A stretch of 20,000 nucleotides of DNA from an uncultured Ignavibacteriales bacterium (lineage in GTDB: Bacteria; Zixibacteria; MSB-5A5; GN15; FEB-12): positions 175,038-195,037 of the forward strand of contig CAYXJN010000008.1 of assembly GCA_964464605.1 (NCBI GenBank), in the 5' to 3' direction. This document shows, piece by piece, positions 9,001 to 15,000 of the stretch (positions are counted from its first letter, which is position 1; each line of letters starts with the position of its first letter). Position numbers: made by a program.

Positions 9001-12000
9001 AAGAATTGCCTGAAACGCATCGCCGCGAGCAACTTCAGAAGGTTCAAGAAAAGCCAAACGAAAGTATTCCATGTTTTCCTCGAACCCTTCTTTTAGCTCA
9101 CGACCGTTCAAGTATGTAGATGGCAAGTCTACTCCATTGTCTCGTTTGCCATTAATAACAAATTTACAGCGAGGCCAAGTAACTGAATTTGCAATCCCAT
9201 GCTCTTCAAAAGCATCTTCACCTTGAAAATGTCCGTTTGAGTTCAATTCGAGAGCCAGCTTTTCGCTGACTTCGTTATTTGTGACGAGTATGCACCTGCG
9301 TTTCCCATCATCATCTGCATTTAGCAATGCGGTTGCATGAAATGTTGTCCCTGAACCAGCAAAAAAGTCCAAAACGATACCTGCTTTTCGTTTTAGCATA
9401 ACAGGCATGAGTGTCTCACAAACTGCATACACAGACTTAGGGTAAGAAAAGCCGGAAGTACCTCCGAAAATGTCTACCAGTAGTTCACTGCCATGTGTGC
9501 TTGCATCGAGAGGCGGCTTGCTCCATACTGTTTTCCATCTCTTTGATTGTTTTTCTTTGAGAGTATAATAGATCTGGATTCCATAATTTTGTCTTGCAGC
9601 GAACAACTTACCAGCCTCAAACTCCGCCTTTGCGCGTGCTGGCCCATAGTGCCAATTTCGCTCAACTCCGAGTTTATCAATCGGCCAAATCGGAATAGAC
9701 GAACCGAGTTTTATCGCATTGCGTTTTTCAGTTTTAGGCAGTGGATTGCCAAAACCGGTTACTTCAAGTGTTTGTTCATTGACGTAGATAGGATAAAATT
9801 GACCCGGCCGTGCAAGTCGTAGCGAATTGTTGCCTGTACGTCGAAGGTTTCTTGTTTCGCCACCGATGGTGGATTCAAGGGGTTGTTCATCAATAATGTC
9901 TTCACCTTGTGGCACAACAAACAGTGCGTATTCGTGACTTCGCGCAAATTCTTCTCCTTGGCGGCCACGCTTATTGTGTTCGATGACTATCGTGAAAAAT
10001 TTGAATCCTTGGAATAACTCTTCAACTAAACACATCAGATGGCCAAGCTCATGGTCGTCTATGGTTATTACTAAGACCCCATCTGGCTTGAGCAGTCGCT
10101 TGCCAAACAATAATCGTTTCTTAATCATTGAGAGCCACTTCGAGTGACGAAAACTATCTGATTTATCTACATAATCGTTGTTGTATTTCCAATCACGTGC
10201 GCCCGTGTTGTAAGGTGGGTCTATATAAATAACGTCTATTTTGCCCTCGTAGCAATAAAGCAAAAGCTGAAGCGCGTGGAAGTTATCGGCGTTGATGAGC
10301 AGGTGCCAAGGTTTGTCAGCCCCGCCTCGCTCAACACGATCCACTGGTTCGAGCGCAGGAAAAATCGGTTCTCCGAAACTCCTAACGACCACAAGGTCGT
10401 CGATATGAAACTCTTTTTGCGTTTGTTTTTGCGTTGATGAACGCTCCACTGAAACGCATATCGCCGTTTTCTTCTGGATGCTTTTAACGCGCCAGAGCTG
10501 GTTTCCAGATTCGCGCTTGAGTGCCACAAGTTCACTTGGCTTCACAGTCAAGTTTGGCAGCCGCACAGTTTCCGGCAGGTGTTCCTCAAAGACGAGCCCG
10601 AACTGCTTAGTCTTTTTTAGTGCCTTTACCTCGGCGGCGATTCCCTTGCGGAGTCGCTCGTCTGGAATTTGCGCAATCAAGTCTTCAATTTTAGCCATTT
10701 ATTTTCATGTACATAGTTGTCAAGGTTGTTTACGAATTGCTCAAGTGTTCCCATTGCCTGCCTTTGACTTTCGCCCGTTTGCCACGAAAATCCTCTCTCT
10801 GTTAAGCCCTGAAAGTGTAAGAATAGCTGAGAGATAGAGGAATTGTCAAGTTGAGCATTTAAGCAGAATTTGGCATCTCGATGCAATTTGTAATTGATTG
10901 TTCCGATACAATTAAGCAAAGTTTGGGAAATTAGGGTAACGGCCAGCGAGCCAATCGAGCAGGGAAGAAATTGATATGGGTCATACGTATTTGGGAGTGC
11001 TTGCAAAAACTCAACTTTGGAATGAGGTTGTTGCTCTTTTACAAAACGAGGCCGACACCGATCTAATTGCCGAAAAGAGCTTCTTAGCCATTGACCAGGG
11101 GCTTTCCAAGATTTCAGACGATGCGGGATTTACCCACGTTCTAACCAACATACTGCAATTCATCGACCAATCAGCTTCCGGCAAGACAACCGACTTCTTC
11201 ACCCAATTTGGGTTGAATGTCAGGGAAATTACATCGCCGCTACACGCGACCGCCGTGCTTAGGGAGACTTCCGACAAGGTTATTCGTCAGGCACGGTGCA
11301 AATCTGATCTGTCTGAATTGGCTCAAAACAGTTTCTCTGAAGCATTTCAAAGTCACCTTTATAATCAACTTCCTACTCTGTTTTCAAATGCGCCGGAGCA
11401 TGTTGAACGGGCTATCAAGAATGTAAGCAAAGGCAAAGAGTTTCAAGCTCTCATGCACGACTTTTATGCCGTTTTCACTCGGCGATATGTCAGTTACTAC
11501 CTAAGCAGGGAGCTTTCCAATCATGTAGGAAGTGGGAAAAAGTTTCGTGATCTAAAAGAACATTCAGATTTTTACAAAGCATTGGATCACCACATTCGAC
11601 AGACGGTGCGGATTTCGGATGATTTCACCCCCGGTTGGTTCGGTAAGGCGAGATTTGAAAAACGGGTCAGTCACGATGATGTCAAAAAGTATGCGTTTGT
11701 AGCGTTTAAGAAAATCCGTTCAGAGTTCAAACGGGGCATGGTCAGTGGCAAACAGTGAACACCTGATATGGTGCGGCACAGACAAGCCGCCTAAGAAGCC
11801 AGTTGATGGAACTTTGGTTCATCTATCGACTGATGGGCCGAACGAAAATGTCAATTGTCGCATTGAGAATATCTCCAACAAGCTTACGCAAAACCTTTCC
11901 CCTATAATCGAAGACATGATTGAAATTGGAAGCTATGTATATGCCGCCGACCAAACGGTAAGTCGAGGAGGCCCGGCTTGGTCGAACAACGGAGCAGATT

Positions 12001-15000
12001 GGACACGGGACTTTCGATTTGTTATTCCAGTCAGGGAACCAGATACATGGAATAAACAGGAAGTTCGAGAATCGCTGGAGGAATTGCTGAGTTTCATGTC
12101 CGGCGACAGTTATCAGTTTGAGTTCACCGAACGGAAATCGATAAGGGCTACGACACCTTATTTTGAGTTTGGTGACAATCCCTGGTTCAGGGCCGATTCG
12201 ATCGTGTTGTTTTCCGGGGGACTTGATTCATTTGCCGGTGCTTTGGAAGAAGTGTTAACTTTGAGGAACAAAACGGTTTTGGTTAGTCATCGATCTGTTC
12301 CAAAAATAGCTAAACGACAATTAGACTTGGCCGAGAAAGTACGGCAACTTGCAGGCGGCAATCAGAAATTGCTTCATGTGCCGGTTTGGGTGAATAAAGT
12401 GAAGGGCTTAACAAAGGACTCCACGCAGAGATCGAGGTCGTTTCTCTTTATGATGCTGGCAGCGAGTATGGGGGAAGTCTTCAAATCGAATACCATTAGA
12501 TTCTACGAAAATGGAATTACGAGCTTTAACTTGCCGTGTAGTGCCCAAGTCGTTGATTCTCGCGCGAGCCGAACTACCCATCCCAAAACACTCAAATTGG
12601 CTTCTGAGTTTTTCACAAAGTTACTCAATCGCCAATTCGTTGTTACCAATCCGTTTTTATGGCATACCAAAACAGATGTGGTTGGAGTAATTAAAAAGCA
12701 CAATCTCGGTTCATTAGTACCATTCACGTCGAGTTGTAGTCATACTCAAACGACAAGCATTATGAACACCCACTGCGGAACTTGCTCGCAGTGTTTCGAT
12801 AGGCGAACGGCAATCATTGCAGGTGGCCTTGCCGATTTTGAGACGGGTGAATCCTACAAAGTTAACTTACCTCTCGATCCAATCAAGGAAGGTCGCGACC
12901 GAACAATGGTTGAGTCAATGGCGCGGATGGCGACTGAAATTGAGGATATGGACGAAGTTCAATTCTGCTCAAAGCTTAACGAAATCGAACGCATTGTCAC
13001 TAACCTCGATCCACCCGTTGACCAAGCTGCTATGCAGGTCATTAGTTTGTACAAACGCCATTCCGCCCAGGTCTTCTCGGTGCTGCGCTCGTTCGTTTCA
13101 GAAAACGCGACGCTTATCCTAAAGAAAAGAGTGCCGCCTGACTCTCTGTTGTCTATGATCGCAGGGTTGATCCAACCGAGTGCTAAAGCGGAAGATAGTC
13201 AAACCATTTGCAAGCTGCCTGATGGAACTACATGGAGTCAACTCTTGGTCGAAATCGTATCCAACGATGCCATTCGAATTAAGGCAAATGGATTTACGAA
13301 ACGGCTCACTTACCAAGACTTGGGTATGCGAGACGGTCGAAAAGGGGACTTTCCAACGGCTCAATGGGAATTGCTGATTGAATTTGCGGAAGGTGGTGGT
13401 ATGTTGAATTGGAAGTCTAAGGGTTCTGACCCCAAGTGGAAAAAGCAAGTAAACGTACTAAGAAAGAAGCTCAAGGACATTTTCGGCCTGTCTGGTGCCC
13501 CGATTACTATGTACCAAAAGCGAGTTGGTTACAAGTGCAACTTTCAGGTAAGCGACTCACGACCGAACCAGGTCAGAAAAAAGATAGATTACACAAATCC
13601 TGAATTTTCATAATTCGATTCCTCAAAAATAGCTCAAATATTCACGATCAATAAATCACCCAGTAGTAAGCAGTTTGTTCCAAAAATCAACCAGCGTCGC
13701 ATTTTTTTTCGCCGAATTCTGAATTTTCACAAGAAAGGGTAAAGACACTTTGGTTTAACTGATTCGGTCAATTTGTGAAACCAACTTCGCTCGAATGGGC
13801 GAACAACGAGCCCCTGACGGGAACTGACCGAATCAGCCGTCAGGGGTTCCTTATTTGTGATGCTTGGTTTTTTGACGTGAAAGAAAATGAATCCCAGATT
13901 GAGAAGTTGGAACCGACTTCGGATCAACTCTCGGTAGACTCGGCGGTCGAGCCATTTGTTATCGATAAGCAGGCGGCCAGTAATCTCTGGGATTTCTTTG
14001 AAATTCTTCGCCGGTGGGCTGAGGAGGAGGAGAAGAATGGGTAGGATTAACGGGCAGACTATCCGGCGAATGCGACTGCGAAGAACCTACGATGCGCGGG
14101 AATTAGCGACAATTCTTGGCGTTCATATCGGTACCGTCCGAACGTGGAGTAAGTCCAGTCTCAAACCCATCGACGTCAAGAATTTCCCGAGGCTGTACTT
14201 GGGTAGAGATGTTAGAGCATTTCTCAACCAAAGGTTCAAGAGTAAGCAGCCAAAGATGCAGGCGAACGAATTGTGGTGCTTCAAATGTCGAACAGCTACC
14301 ACATCGGAATCCAAAAATACAGTCATTGAAATCACTGGAAAGCGGCTGGGGAAATCTTCTTTTCATGTTATGGTGCGTGGATTGTGCATAGTTTGCGGAT
14401 CGAATTGTAGTAAGGCATTTTCTCTGGAGAAAGCAGCAAATGCTTACAATTCCCCCGAAGTGCTGTGGTTAGGGGAAAACCGATTATCAGGATTGCAATC
14501 CCCTAAGCTAAACACTGACTCTGAAAGGACTATTGAAGATGGAAGTTAATGCACGAAATGAGAGAGTGAAAAGGCGTTATATCAATTGGCTTGCTCGCGC
14601 TCAAAGTAAGAACGACAAGACCGTTGAGAGTATGTTGGCGGCAGTTTATTCCTATGATGATTTTACCAAAAATTCAAATTATGAAACATTTAGTGAAAAG
14701 AGAGCCATCAAGTACAAAGACTACCTTGCTACCGACAGGCAAGGGAAAGGGCGACTTTCCGCTACTACAATCAGAAGTCACTTGAAAAACCTACAGGCGT
14801 TTTTTAGATATTTATGTGATCAACCGGGCTATCGGAAGCACATTCGACCGACTGAAATCGCGTTCCTTTCCCCGGACTGCGCTCACGGACAATTGCATCT
14901 TTCGAGCATTCCCAAGCGGACTCCTTCCCTTGAATATGTGAAGCGAATTATTCGGTCGATTGCTGGAACAGATGAAATAGCAATGCGAGACCGGGCTATG

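What a model noticed while it worked through the whole genome (the two positions that open the first line are those of the whole stretch)
10976..13613. Natural two-gene qatBC-like module: extended QatC plus an MGH-start partner of a new family
Two overlapping genes encode a 260-aa protein starting Met-Gly-His and a 622-aa QatC homologue with about 160 extra C-terminal residues. No qatA gene exists in the genome and no qatD is linked to the pair. The pair represents a widespread class that I did not find described. In that class QatC is fused to variable tails (DpnII/MboI-type nuclease, TIR, protease, HTH, unknown), and the partner is a family with an invariant N-terminal glycine that shows no sequence similarity to canonical QatB.
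Evidence so far: - QatC identity: PADLOC 3e-54; PDB 9vlk_A 1.4e-27; SGGLDS, four Zn cysteines and QatC motifs invariant in 27 homologues. - Partner: no Pfam, PADLOC, NCBIfam or PDB hit. - 80 genome loci: partner upstream in 71, all 71 with [M/L]GH at the aligned start. - 66 of 79 QatC homologues have a tail of at least 70 aa. - Tails: 14 DpnII-MboI, 3 TIR, 3 HTH and 1 trypsin-like among 63 scanned; 16 tail clusters. - TatD neighbour in 1 of 80 loci; no KAP NTPase. - Own genome: 0 KAP NTPase, and TatD only on C7. - Partner profile: 1849, 1373 and 630 cluster representatives; 131 of the top 150 start MGH. - hhalign against canonical QatB gives 6.8%; the profile finds no PDB QatB. - IMG/VR: 192 relatives; partn [...]
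(Added by a program. Inside this text positions count along the whole contig: contig position 175,038 is position 1 of the stretch shown here. "Call 12" and the like, gene names such as g00115 and contig names such as C1 are that model's own, and its searches are not shown. The text may have been shortened before it was handed on; [...] marks where a part breaks off. The agent that wrote the report below was given it as the finding of a first reader that could run no searches.)

Follow-up and report, generated by a model that had tools for sequence, protein, structure and literature searches.

The report
Two-gene QatBC-like phage-defence module
Two overlapping genes encode a QatC-type enzyme carrying an extra DNA-binding-like domain and a small helical partner that it probably modifies at its first glycine, an undescribed and widespread minimal relative of the four-gene Qat anti-phage system.

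Summary
Window 10976-11758 (+) encodes a 260-aa protein starting Met-Gly-His. It overlaps by 14 nt a 622-aa QatC homologue at 11745-13613 (+) (PADLOC 3e-54; PDB QatC 1.4e-27).

- **No other Qat genes.** The 100%-complete genome holds no qatA or canonical qatB, and only a housekeeping TatD.
- **Tight linkage.** I sampled loci by the partner rather than by QatC. A QatC-like gene follows it in 80 of 80 genome loci and 46 of 47 viral loci. Gly2 is present in 79 of 79 and 44 of 45 N-termini.
- **Predicted binding.** The complex scores ipSAE 0.91 against 0.00 for the best control. It uses the two QatC surfaces that bind QatB in crystals, and partner residues 2-11 lie on QatC's motif residues.

No paper I searched describes this class. 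I rate it a new variant of a known kind. No experiment exists.

The parts
10976..11758 (+). Partner gene: 260 aa, all-helical, QatB-like. Starts Met-Gly-His.
   Evidence: ORF. AF2 model pLDDT 86.8 with 11 helices and residues 1-12 as coil. The family has 1676 50%-identity cluster representatives.
10976..11011 (+). Partner N-terminal tail, residues 1-12 (MGHTYLGVLAKT). Gly2 is the proposed acceptor after Met removal.
   Evidence: A start codon followed by Gly lies at the aligned start in 79 of 79 genome loci; Gly-His in 77 of 79. Residues 2-11 are in the predicted interface with QatC.
11501..11530 (+). Partner motif LSRELSNHVG, residues 176-185. It is the most conserved stretch of the family.
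   Evidence: L176, S177, R178, E179, L180 and G185 are invariant in 34 sequences. Residues 170-186 touch the QatC loop 264-277 in the predicted complex.
11745..13613 (+). QatC-like gene: 622 aa, a QueC-family PP-loop ATP pyrophosphatase. GTG start, overlapping the partner gene by 14 nt.
   Evidence: PADLOC QatC 3e-54. PDB QatC 1.4e-27. NCBIfam QatC 203 bits, below the cut-off of 280.
12213..12230 (+). PP-loop SGGLDS, residues 157-162 (ATP pyrophosphate binding).
   Evidence: S157, G158, G159, D161 and S162 are invariant in 42 sequences. They align to the SGGLDS of 9vlk_A.
12534..12584 (+). QatC-specific long loop and RTTHP motif, residues 264-280. Predicted to pack on the partner.
   Evidence: R276, T278, H279 and P280 are invariant. 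Residues 264-275 and 277 are in the interface, and the 266-268 pairs with partner 173-178 have the lowest expected error.
12735..12794 (+). Zinc-binding cysteines C331, C344, C347 and C350.
   Evidence: All four are invariant in 42 sequences. C344, C347 and C350 align to the CGRCVPC stretch of 9vlk_A.
12888..13034 (+). C-terminal extension helices of the QatC core, residues 382-430. Predicted main docking surface for the partner.
   Evidence: Residues 382-430 contact partner residues 86-129 and 181-200. The equivalent extension binds QatB in crystal structures (PMC13279940 and PMC13639016, sections read).
13179..13613 (+). C-terminal tail, residues 479-622, absent from canonical QatC. The winged-helix fold spans about residues 499-604 (nt 13239-13556).
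10699..10975 (.). Intergenic region between the divergent type III methylase gene and the pair. It holds an imperfect 18-nt direct repeat at 10856-10873 and 10909-10926.
   Evidence: The best 16-mer repeat scores 13 of 16, reached by 0 of 40 shuffles. No comparable repeat appears in 9 sister loci.
13956..17338 (+). Context: a 197-aa HTH protein, a 369-aa tyrosine integrase and a 490-aa serine recombinase. The same three-gene set follows the pair in sister loci.
   Evidence: Pfam and PADLOC. Homologues lie downstream of the pair in L005-L009, L011, L019 and L021. tRNA-Asp is at 17299-17373.
6221..10698 (-). Context: type III restriction-modification genes (res, 823 aa; mod, 669 aa), divergent from the pair.
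   Evidence: PADLOC MTase_III 1.9e-112 and REase_III 1.9e-08. Pfam ResIII and N6_N4_Mtase.

Best explanation
This is an autonomous two-gene relative of the Qat anti-phage system, carried on a small integrative element beside a type III R-M system.

**Proposed mechanism.**
- The 622-aa protein is a QatC-type PP-loop enzyme.
- The 260-aa helical partner docks on the enzyme's C-terminal extension helices and on its long QatC-specific loop.
- After removal of Met1, the partner threads its short Gly-His N-terminus toward the active site.
- There the enzyme uses ATP to attach a carboxylate to the alpha-amine of Gly2. By analogy with Cap9 and QatC, this is most likely 7-carboxy-7-deazaguanine made by the host queCDE genes.
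- The extra C-terminal domain is an OmpR/PhoB-type winged helix that stays free of the partner. It most likely tethers or directs the complex to DNA, a role that QatA (which binds DNA) may play in four-gene systems.

**What is shown here:** the gene pair, the QatC motifs, the strict linkage, the invariant Gly2 and the absence of qatA and qatD.

**What is predicted:** the complex and the tail fold.

**What is inferred:** the chemistry, DNA binding and anti-phage function.
For: **QatC membership.**
- PADLOC 3e-54, PDB QatC 1.4e-27, NCBIfam QatC 6.3e-60.
- The motifs that PMC13329287 lists for QatC (section read) can be read in the sequence and are invariant or nearly so in 42 homologues: D69-R74, W86-x-R88, D121-x-Y-x3-F127, R229-x-R231, E255-N-G257, H279-P280, P303-x4-T308-K309, and D57, which aligns to the catalytic D63.

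**Linkage.**
- The partner is followed by QatC in 80 of 80 genome loci. In 79 of these the gap is between -20 and +16 nt.
- It is followed by QatC in 46 of 47 viral loci.
- One representative of 150 is a partner-QatC-Metallophos fusion of 1079 aa.

**Acceptor glycine.** Gly2 is present in 79 of 79 genome and 44 of 45 viral N-termini.

**Complex.**
- ipSAE is 0.91 in three runs; the best of 3 controls is 0.00.
- The mark was reached by 116 of 157 solved complexes and 2 of 215 mismatched pairs.
- The runs share at least 92% of contacts, and partner pLDDT is at least 85.
- The interface uses QatC 264-277 and 382-430, plus partner 2-11 against QatC 77-89, 113-122, 227, 259-262, 332 and 347-349.

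**Published precedent.**
- QatBC alone defends against lambda-vir, and QatB G2D abolishes defence (PMC13279940, sections read).
- An NDG-modified QatB N-terminal peptide was seen by LC-MS/MS (PMC13639016, section 9).

**Substrate supply.** The host has queF, queC, a radical-SAM queE-like gene and queD on C7.

**Tail.** Pfam Trans_reg_C scores above its cut-off in tails of 2 of 60 genome loci and 5 of 41 viral loci.

**Defence context.** A type III R-M system is adjacent. Recombinase and R-M genes are the recurrent neighbours across loci.
Against: - No experiment exists on this pair or on any member of its class.
- The partner matches no QatB profile: NCBIfam NF041924 gives none at E up to 1, hhalign probability is 0.8%, and my QatB HMM finds nothing.
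- The partner has only about 12 unstructured N-terminal residues, against 30-90 in QatB (PMC13279940).
- The chemistry is open even for canonical QatC. Two groups could not reconstitute activity with CDG (PMC13279940; PMC13376578).
- The complex score is a model's confidence, and my own alignments were used. QatBC crystal structures exist, so part of the pass may reflect likeness of the QatC side.
- hhalign between the window-type tails and the 'GYRLNP' tails finds nothing.
- No effector is evident in this locus.
Confidence: 0.62

Rival explanations
1. The pair is not an immune system. It is a maintenance or regulatory module of the mobile element that carries it. The winged-helix tail would act as a transcription factor for element genes, and modification of the partner would serve as a switch for excision, transfer or replication.
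For: Recurrent neighbours are serine recombinases (25 loci), primase-like genes (21 loci), tyrosine integrases (11 loci) and an HTH protein (9 loci). In the window and in sister loci L005-L009, L011, L019 and L021 the pair is followed by the same HTH, integrase and serine recombinase set. Many tails look like DNA-binding domains rather than effectors. A non-random direct repeat lies upstream of the pair in the window.
Against: The enzyme keeps every QatC-specific motif, and canonical QatBC is a proven defence unit (PMC13279940). Defence genes commonly ride on such elements, and R-M genes are also recurrent neighbours. Some tails are nuclease or phosphoesterase domains: DpnII-MboI at 1.2e-09 in L087 and Metallophos at 2.6e-13 in P0302. 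The upstream repeat is not seen in 9 sister loci.
Confidence: 0.15
2. The partner is an unrelated protein family that converged on QatC binding. It would be an analogue of QatB, not a homologue, so this is a distinct system that only shares the enzyme.
Against: The three nearest named ESM-Atlas clusters are all QatB (PF28083): scores 0.87, 0.84 and 0.82 with 187, 179 and 170 shared features. These are below 0.9, so they are a lead only. The partner has the same size class, is all-helical, has the same gene order with a translational overlap, and is predicted to use the same QatC surfaces. The fold libraries may not hold QatB: the Foldseek copy ends on 2026-04-08.
Confidence: 0.2
3. The enzyme acts on nucleic acid or a small molecule bound through the winged-helix tail, as QueC-family enzymes do in deazaguanine DNA modification. 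The partner would be only a scaffold or regulator, not a substrate.
For: QueC-family enzymes are ancestrally small-molecule enzymes. The tail suggests nucleic-acid contact. Canonical QatC showed no activity with CDG in vitro.
Against: Gly2 is invariant across 79 of 79 and 44 of 45 loci. Partner residues 2-11 are predicted to lie on the QatC motif residues. The canonical QueC substrate motifs are replaced by the QatC set. Published QatB G2D mutants lose defence.
Confidence: 0.06

Closest known systems
QatBC core of the qatABCD anti-phage system (E. coli and P. aeruginosa; PDB 9vlk, 9zee)
   Same: - It has a QatC-type enzyme with the PP-loop, four zinc cysteines and all QatC-specific motifs.
- A helical protein of about 250 aa with Met-Gly at its start is encoded just upstream, overlapping the enzyme gene.
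- It is predicted to bind through the enzyme's C-terminal extension and long loop, with the N-terminus toward the active site (compare).
   Different: - There is no qatA or qatD in the locus or genome.
- The enzyme scores 203 bits against the NCBIfam equivalog cut-off of 280. It sits apart from the canonical clade, which has 100% SH-aLRT support and a stem of 1.32 changes per column.
- It carries a 144-aa winged-helix tail.
- The partner starts MGH rather than MGTS, has a short N-terminal tail and matches no QatB profile.
Type IV CBASS Cap9-CD-NTase deazaguanylation
   Same: A QueC-family enzyme is paired with a protein substrate whose Gly2 alpha-amine is the acceptor after Met removal (10.1101/2025.04.06.647259, passages read).
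   Different: No CD-NTase, Cap10 or Cap11 is among the window's ORFs that I scanned. Cap9 keeps the canonical QueC substrate motifs and is about 185 aa. This enzyme has the remodelled QatC motif set and is 622 aa.
QatC-TatD fusion in a canonical qat operon (Bradyrhizobium ottawaense plasmid, locus L089)
   Same: A QatC carries an extra C-terminal domain in one polypeptide: 709 aa, with TatD_DNase at 1.2e-46 over residues 468-705.
   Different: That locus keeps qatA and a canonical, annotated qatB, and its QatC belongs to the canonical clade. The fused domain is the system's own nuclease, not a winged helix.
OmpR/PhoB-family winged-helix DNA-binding domains (Pfam Trans_reg_C)
   Same: The tail model has the same order of elements: a beta sheet, then helices, then a C-terminal beta hairpin. 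The top 23 structural matches are all of this family, with rmsd about 3-4 A over 72-93 residues. Sister tails reach the Pfam cut-off.
   Different: The window's own tail has no Pfam hit. It is fused to an enzyme rather than to a receiver domain. DNA binding is untested.

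Membership tests
QatC (QueC-family enzyme of Qat systems) | PP-loop SGGxDS and four zinc-binding cysteines | tested here: met
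   S157, G158, G159, D161, S162 and C331, C344, C347, C350 are invariant in 42 sequences. They align to 9vlk_A. The first two cysteines are 12 residues apart, against 19 in the published pattern.
QatC (QueC-family enzyme of Qat systems) | QatC-specific motifs replacing the QueC substrate motifs: D(x)4R...WxR, DxW/YxxxF, RxRxxxF/Y, ExG, HP, P(x)4TK, catalytic Asp | tested here: met
   The motif list comes from PMC13329287. It is read in the sequence as D69-R74, W86-R88, D121-F127, R229-R231-F235, E255-G257, H279-P280, P303-T308-K309 and D57. Of these D69, R74, W86, F127, R229, R231, E255, G257, H279, P280, P303, T308 and D57 are invariant; R88, D121 and K309 are nearly invariant (at least 90%); F235 is read in the window's sequence only. 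The R-to-W spacing is 11 residues, not 7.
QatC (QueC-family enzyme of Qat systems) | Score above the curated equivalog threshold | tested here: not met
   NCBIfam NF041925 gives 203.2 bits against a cut-off of 280. A canonical QatC scores 404.9. RefSeq leaves the Leptospira plasmid member as 'hypothetical protein'.
qatABCD system | Operon with qatA (KAP NTPase) and qatD (TatD nuclease) | tested here: not met
   The own genome has 0 KAP NTPase, and TatD only on another contig. My qatA and qatD HMMs gave 0 hits in 80 genome loci, the window and 47 viral loci. As a positive control, the qatD HMM finds the host TatD at 2.6e-22.
QatB | N-terminal Met-Gly with Gly2 exposed after Met removal | tested here: met
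   Gly2 is present in 79 of 79 genome and 44 of 45 viral N-termini. Met removal itself is inferred from the general rule quoted in PMC13279940.
QatB | Conserved MGTS start and a disordered N-terminal tail of 30-90 residues | tested here: not met
   The start is MGH in 77 of 79 loci. The first helix begins at residue 13 in the model. The QatB features come from PMC13279940 and from my alignment of 8 canonical QatB.
QatB | Sequence-profile similarity to QatB | tested here: not met
   NCBIfam NF041924 gives no hit at E up to 1, while canonical QatB score 91 and 160 bits. hhalign probability is 0.8%. PADLOC gives no QatB hit. Pfam PF28083 is not in the local library. The nearest named ESM-Atlas clusters are QatB, at 0.87, 0.84 and 0.82; this is a lead only.
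QatB | Same fold as the solved QatB chains | tested here: inconclusive
   The model is all-helical with 11 helices; QatB has ten. Foldseek and VIA-align returned only generic helical matches and no QatB chain. The libraries may not hold QatB.
QatB | 1:1 complex with QatC through the C-terminal extension and long loop, with the N-terminus in the active site | tested here: met
   This is a prediction only: ipSAE 0.91 against 0.00 for the best control, with interface residues as listed. It compares with the crystal interfaces described.
OmpR/PhoB winged helix (Trans_reg_C) | Fold: N-terminal beta sheet, helix-turn-helix with a recognition helix, C-terminal beta-hairpin wing | tested here: met
OmpR/PhoB winged helix (Trans_reg_C) | Pfam PF00486 match above the gathering score | tested here: not met
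   The window's tail and its 9 sister tails have no hit at E up to 0.01. Other tail types do hit: L054 at 30.1 bits, L056 at 28.6, and five viral tails at 29.4-42.1.
OmpR/PhoB winged helix (Trans_reg_C) | Sequence-specific DNA binding | not testable with these tools
   This needs an EMSA or a similar assay.

The most novel reading that the evidence does not exclude
Protein N-terminal conjugation by a QatC-type enzyme may be a self-sufficient immune mechanism, and a far more widespread one than the four-gene qatABCD system suggests. On this reading a large clade of two-gene modules pairs a remote QatB-like substrate, marked by a Gly-His N-terminus, with an enzyme whose C-terminal domain is swapped among DNA-binding winged helices, nucleases and phosphoesterases. 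The partner family has at least 1676 clusters at 50% identity, spread across many phyla and viral contigs. The swappable tail would supply the targeting or effector function that QatA and QatD supply in trans. Canonical qatABCD would then be one derived branch of this family.
Probability: 0.35. Interest if true: 0.75.

Novelty: new variant of a known kind. Interest (0 to 1): 0.6.

Why it matters
Four papers from 2026 show that QatBC is the working core of Qat defence. None of them could say what the modified QatB does or why QatA and QatD are dispensable. A sequence-network paper (PMC13329287) reports that only about a third of QatC-cluster genes sit beside qatA and qatD.

This finding may account for part of the remainder: a compact natural QatBC-only form with a different, short acceptor tail (Gly-His) and a modular C-terminal domain.

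Such a minimal system could be a simpler object for reconstituting the chemistry. The DNA-binding-like tail gives a testable hint that the complex works on DNA.

It also marks a gap in annotation. PGAP names canonical QatC but leaves these genes as hypothetical proteins, and PADLOC would not call a system without qatA and qatD.

Tried and rejected
- **Paper reading** closed when I asked for the supplements of PMC13329287. Its Supplementary Table S2, the neighbourhoods of the QatC cluster, could bear on the novelty claim, and I did not see it.
- **Tail comparisons.** hhalign of window-type tails against 'GYRLNP' tails gave probability 0.1%. PDB profile searches with tail alignments A3, A4 and A8 gave nothing significant. 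A4 touched TcpP at E 0.19.
- **The largest tail cluster** ('GEYW' type, 23 loci) remains unidentified. I found only coiled-coil-like chance hits.
- **Autoregulation idea.** The upstream direct repeat is non-random in the window (0 of 40 shuffles reach it), but no comparable repeat occurs in 9 sister loci.
- **Attachment site.** No repeat of 12 nt or more of the tRNA-Asp region occurs elsewhere in the window.
- **Expression.** No RNA holder was listed.
- **Laying contigs of four DNA runs**. In run X9 the laid pieces stop near 10917 and resume near 17254, leaving the pair and the recombinase genes without cover. No contig joins across the gap and part of the run was unread, so this shows nothing about excision.
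- **Rooting of the QatC tree** on the host QueC is unreliable because of long branches. The grouping of the Leptospira plasmid member with canonical QatC is flagged as possible long-branch attraction.
- **Promoter and terminator scans** were at chance level.

Full report
**Observation**

The two genes are as described. The first is 10976-11758 (+), ATG, 260 aa, starting MGHTYLG. The second is 11745-13613 (+), GTG, 622 aa. They overlap by 14 nt.

The second protein is a QatC homologue:
- PADLOC QatC 3e-54 over residues 46-364.
- Pfam QueC 5.2e-08.
- PDB QatC chains 9vlk_A at 1.4e-27 and 9zee_B at 6.7e-26.
- NCBIfam NF041925 QatC at 6.3e-60, but 203 bits against an equivalog cut-off of 280. A canonical QatC scores 405 bits.

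In my alignment of 42 homologues the PP-loop residues (S157, G158, G159, D161, S162) and the four cysteines (C331, C344, C347, C350) are invariant. The motifs that PMC13329287 gives as defining QatC (section read) can all be read in the sequence, and most of their residues are invariant in the alignment. Two spacings differ from the published pattern.

The partner has no hit in Pfam, PADLOC QatB, NCBIfam QatB or the PDB sequences. The local Pfam copy does not contain the newer QatB family PF28083, because canonical QatB proteins get no QatB hit in it.

**The genome**

The assembly is 100% complete in 18 contigs.
- It has no KAP NTPase.
- It has one TatD, on another contig.
- It has one QatC.
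- My own HMMs of canonical QatA and QatB find nothing in six frames. The QatD HMM finds only the host TatD, which serves as a positive control.
- It has a queF, queC, radical-SAM (queE-like) and queD cluster on contig 7. The deazaguanine precursor used by Cap9, and proposed for QatC, could therefore be made.

**What is published**

I read sections of these papers:
- PMC13279940.
- PMC13376578.
- PMC13639016.
- PMC13434339.
- PMC13329287.
- Passages of the CBASS preprint 10.1101/2025.04.06.647259.

They establish the following:
- QatB and QatC form a 1:1 complex that alone protects against some phages.
- QatB is an all-helical protein with a conserved MGTS start and a long disordered tail that enters the QatC active site.
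- G2D abolishes defence.
[quoted passage not shown] Two groups could not reconstitute activity.
- Canonical QatC does not bind DNA, whereas QatA does.
- PMC13329287 reports that only about 34% of QatC-cluster genes lie with qatA and qatD.
- PMC13434339, which started from QatD, counts 98% full operons.

None of the text I read mentions a long QatC with a Gly-His partner. My searches found no paper that combines QatC with DpnII, TIR or winged helix. Supplements could not be read.

**Linkage, sampled independently of QatC**

I therefore fetched loci with the partner alignment instead.

*Genome contigs.* There were 188 relatives, of which 80 were kept.
- All 80 have a QatC-core match downstream on the same strand.
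- In 79 of them the gap is between -20 and +16 nt, most often an overlap. One has a 2.6-kb gap.
- The QatC gene is split into two or three ORFs in nine loci.
- At the aligned start, 79 of 79 loci have a start codon followed by Gly; the 80th is cut by its contig end. Of these, 77 are Gly-His, one is Gly-Asp and one is Gly-Gln.

*Viral contigs.* There were 47 loci.
- 46 have QatC downstream.
- 44 of 45 N-termini have Gly2.

*Other Qat genes.* HMMs of canonical QatA, QatB and QatD hit none of the ORFs of 50 aa or more in either set.

*Third gene.* Clustering the neighbouring ORFs found no third gene shared across the class. The recurrent neighbours are serine recombinases (25 loci), primase-like genes (21), tyrosine integrases (11), an HTH protein (9) and R-M genes.

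*Family size.* The partner profile finds 1676, 1199 and 538 representatives of 50%-identity clusters at E up to 0.001, 1e-10 and 1e-30. Of the best 150, 124 start MGH or VGH, and 9 more have Gly2 with another third residue. One representative, P0302 (1079 aa), is a fusion of partner, QatC core and a calcineurin-like phosphoesterase. It could be a real fusion or a gene-calling artefact.

**The partner**

The AlphaFold2 model, built from 34 sequences, has pLDDT 86.8. It is all-helical with 11 helices, and only residues 1-12 are unstructured.

Against a relationship to QatB:
- It has no significant structural neighbour.
- hhalign against eight canonical QatB proteins taken from annotated plasmid operons gives 0.8% probability.

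For a relationship to QatB:
- The three nearest named clusters in the ESM Atlas are all QatB (PF28083), at 0.87, 0.84 and 0.82 with 187, 179 and 170 shared features. These scores are below 0.9, so they are a lead and not proof.
- The partner has the same size class, the same gene order and the same Met-Gly start as QatB.
- P10 and W15 are conserved in its N-terminal stretch. This recalls the conserved Pro and Trp in the QatB tail.
- Its predicted interface uses the same QatC surfaces.

Taken together, I consider a very remote QatB homologue more likely than an unrelated analogue.

**The complex**

The predicted complex used full-length enzyme and partner residues 2-260, both with alignments.
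- It scores ipSAE 0.91 in three runs, with 0.00 as the best of three controls.
- The mark was reached by 116 of 157 solved complexes and 2 of 215 mismatched pairs.
- The runs agree in at least 92% of contacts, and partner pLDDT is at least 85.

The interface has three parts:
- Enzyme residues 382-430, the C-terminal extension helices, lie against partner residues 86-129 and 181-200.
- The long enzyme loop 264-277 lies against partner residues 170-186. That stretch includes the invariant LSRELSNHVG motif.
- Partner residues 2-11 lie against enzyme residues 77-89, 113-122, 227, 259-262, 332 and 347-349. These fall in or next to the QatC-specific motifs and the zinc site.

These are the same three elements described for the crystal complexes. 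The tail (residues 479-622) is not in the interface.

This is a model's confidence and not a measurement. Because QatBC structures exist, part of the pass may reflect likeness on the QatC side.

**The tail**

I defined the core with an HMM ending at window residue 478. Among the 60 complete QatC genes of the 80 genome loci (61 with the window's own), 59 have at least 63 residues beyond the core and one has 18. All 41 complete viral ones have at least 85.

The 60 tails of 40 aa or more (59 from loci plus the window's own) fall into clusters of 23, 17, 10 (the window's type), 3 and 2, plus five singletons.

Pfam recognises few of them:
- Trans_reg_C in three genome tails, two of them above the cut-off.
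- One weak DpnII-MboI hit among the genome tails.
- Trans_reg_C in five viral tails, all above the cut-off.
- A clear DpnII-MboI tail (1.2e-09) in a Leptospira noguchii plasmid pair that RefSeq annotates as two hypothetical proteins.

The window's tail, folded with 61 rows, gives pLDDT 87.1. It has three strands, two main helices and a C-terminal hairpin.
- The Foldseek top hit is the CadC DNA-binding domain at E 0.05. Nothing reaches E 0.001.

**Tree**

A quick maximum-likelihood tree (LG+G4, SH-aLRT only) used 71 core sequences:
- 61 complete partner-linked QatC, including the window's.
- 8 canonical QatC.
- The Leptospira plasmid member.
- The host QueC as outgroup.

Fragmented genes were left out.

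The results were:
- Canonical QatC forms one clade with 100% support on a long stem.
- The window's type forms one clade with 97% support.
- Tail types follow the core tree: 13 changes, against a mean of 42 in shuffles.

The root is not reliable, so which form is ancestral stays open.

**Context in the window**

- Upstream and divergent lie type III R-M genes.
- Downstream lie an HTH protein, a tyrosine integrase and a serine recombinase, whose end overlaps tRNA-Asp.
- The same three downstream genes follow the pair in eight sister loci. The pair therefore appears to travel as cargo of a small integrative element.
- No RNA data were available.

**Verdict**

The finding is real, and its interpretation holds. 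This is a natural, widespread, undescribed two-gene relative of QatBC.

I add a predicted complex that mirrors QatBC, a winged-helix identity for the tail, and a lead that the partner is a remote QatB. It is a new variant of a known kind. Function, chemistry and DNA binding remain untested.

Noticed in passing
window 13956-17373: The pair is followed by an HTH/zinc-ribbon-like protein (197 aa; weak PADLOC mad1 and Pfam HTH_17 hits), a tyrosine integrase (369 aa) and a large serine recombinase (490 aa). The 3' end of the recombinase gene overlaps tRNA-Asp (17299-17373, minus strand), and tRNA-Val follows at 17471-17544. The same three genes follow the pair in L005-L009, L011, L019 and L021. This suggests a small integrative element with the pair as cargo.
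   Followed up: partly
window 10856-10873 and 10909-10926: An imperfect 18-nt direct repeat (15 of 18 identical, 53 nt apart) lies 120 and 67 nt upstream of the partner's ATG. No shuffle of 40 reached its score. No comparable repeat occurs in 9 sister loci.
   Followed up: yes
L089:3333-5462 (Bradyrhizobium ottawaense plasmid): In a canonical qat operon, qatC and qatD are fused into one 709-aa protein (TatD_DNase at 1.2e-46 over residues 468-705). The qatA gene there appears split into two ORFs.
   Followed up: partly
L087:3635-6279 (Leptospira noguchii plasmid): This is a member of the same class: a 260-aa MGH partner and a 621-aa QatC with a DpnII-MboI nuclease tail (1.2e-09). Both are annotated as hypothetical proteins, and the pair sits next to an IS982 transposase.
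   Followed up: partly
protein P0302 (1079 aa): A single polypeptide holds the partner (residues 4-224), the QatC core (260-731) and a calcineurin-like phosphoesterase (757-995). It starts MHP rather than MGH. It could be a natural fusion or a gene-calling artefact.
   Followed up: partly
L123 (viral contig): This is the only partner homologue without a QatC gene downstream, despite about 5 kb of room. It is also the only one with Asp instead of Gly at position 2 (MDH).
   Followed up: no
window 1178-5812, minus strand: A run of minus-strand ORFs has little annotation: a protein with a heavy-metal-binding domain, a DUF2231 membrane protein, and 259-aa, 527-aa and 185-aa proteins without Pfam hits. 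They lie next to a HAD-family hydrolase fragment at the window's start.
   Followed up: no
L011, L017, L028, L032, L044, L047, L064, L065, L077: In nine of 80 genome loci the QatC-like gene is split into two or three ORFs while the partner gene is mostly intact. This could be decay of the system or assembly errors in metagenome bins.
   Followed up: no
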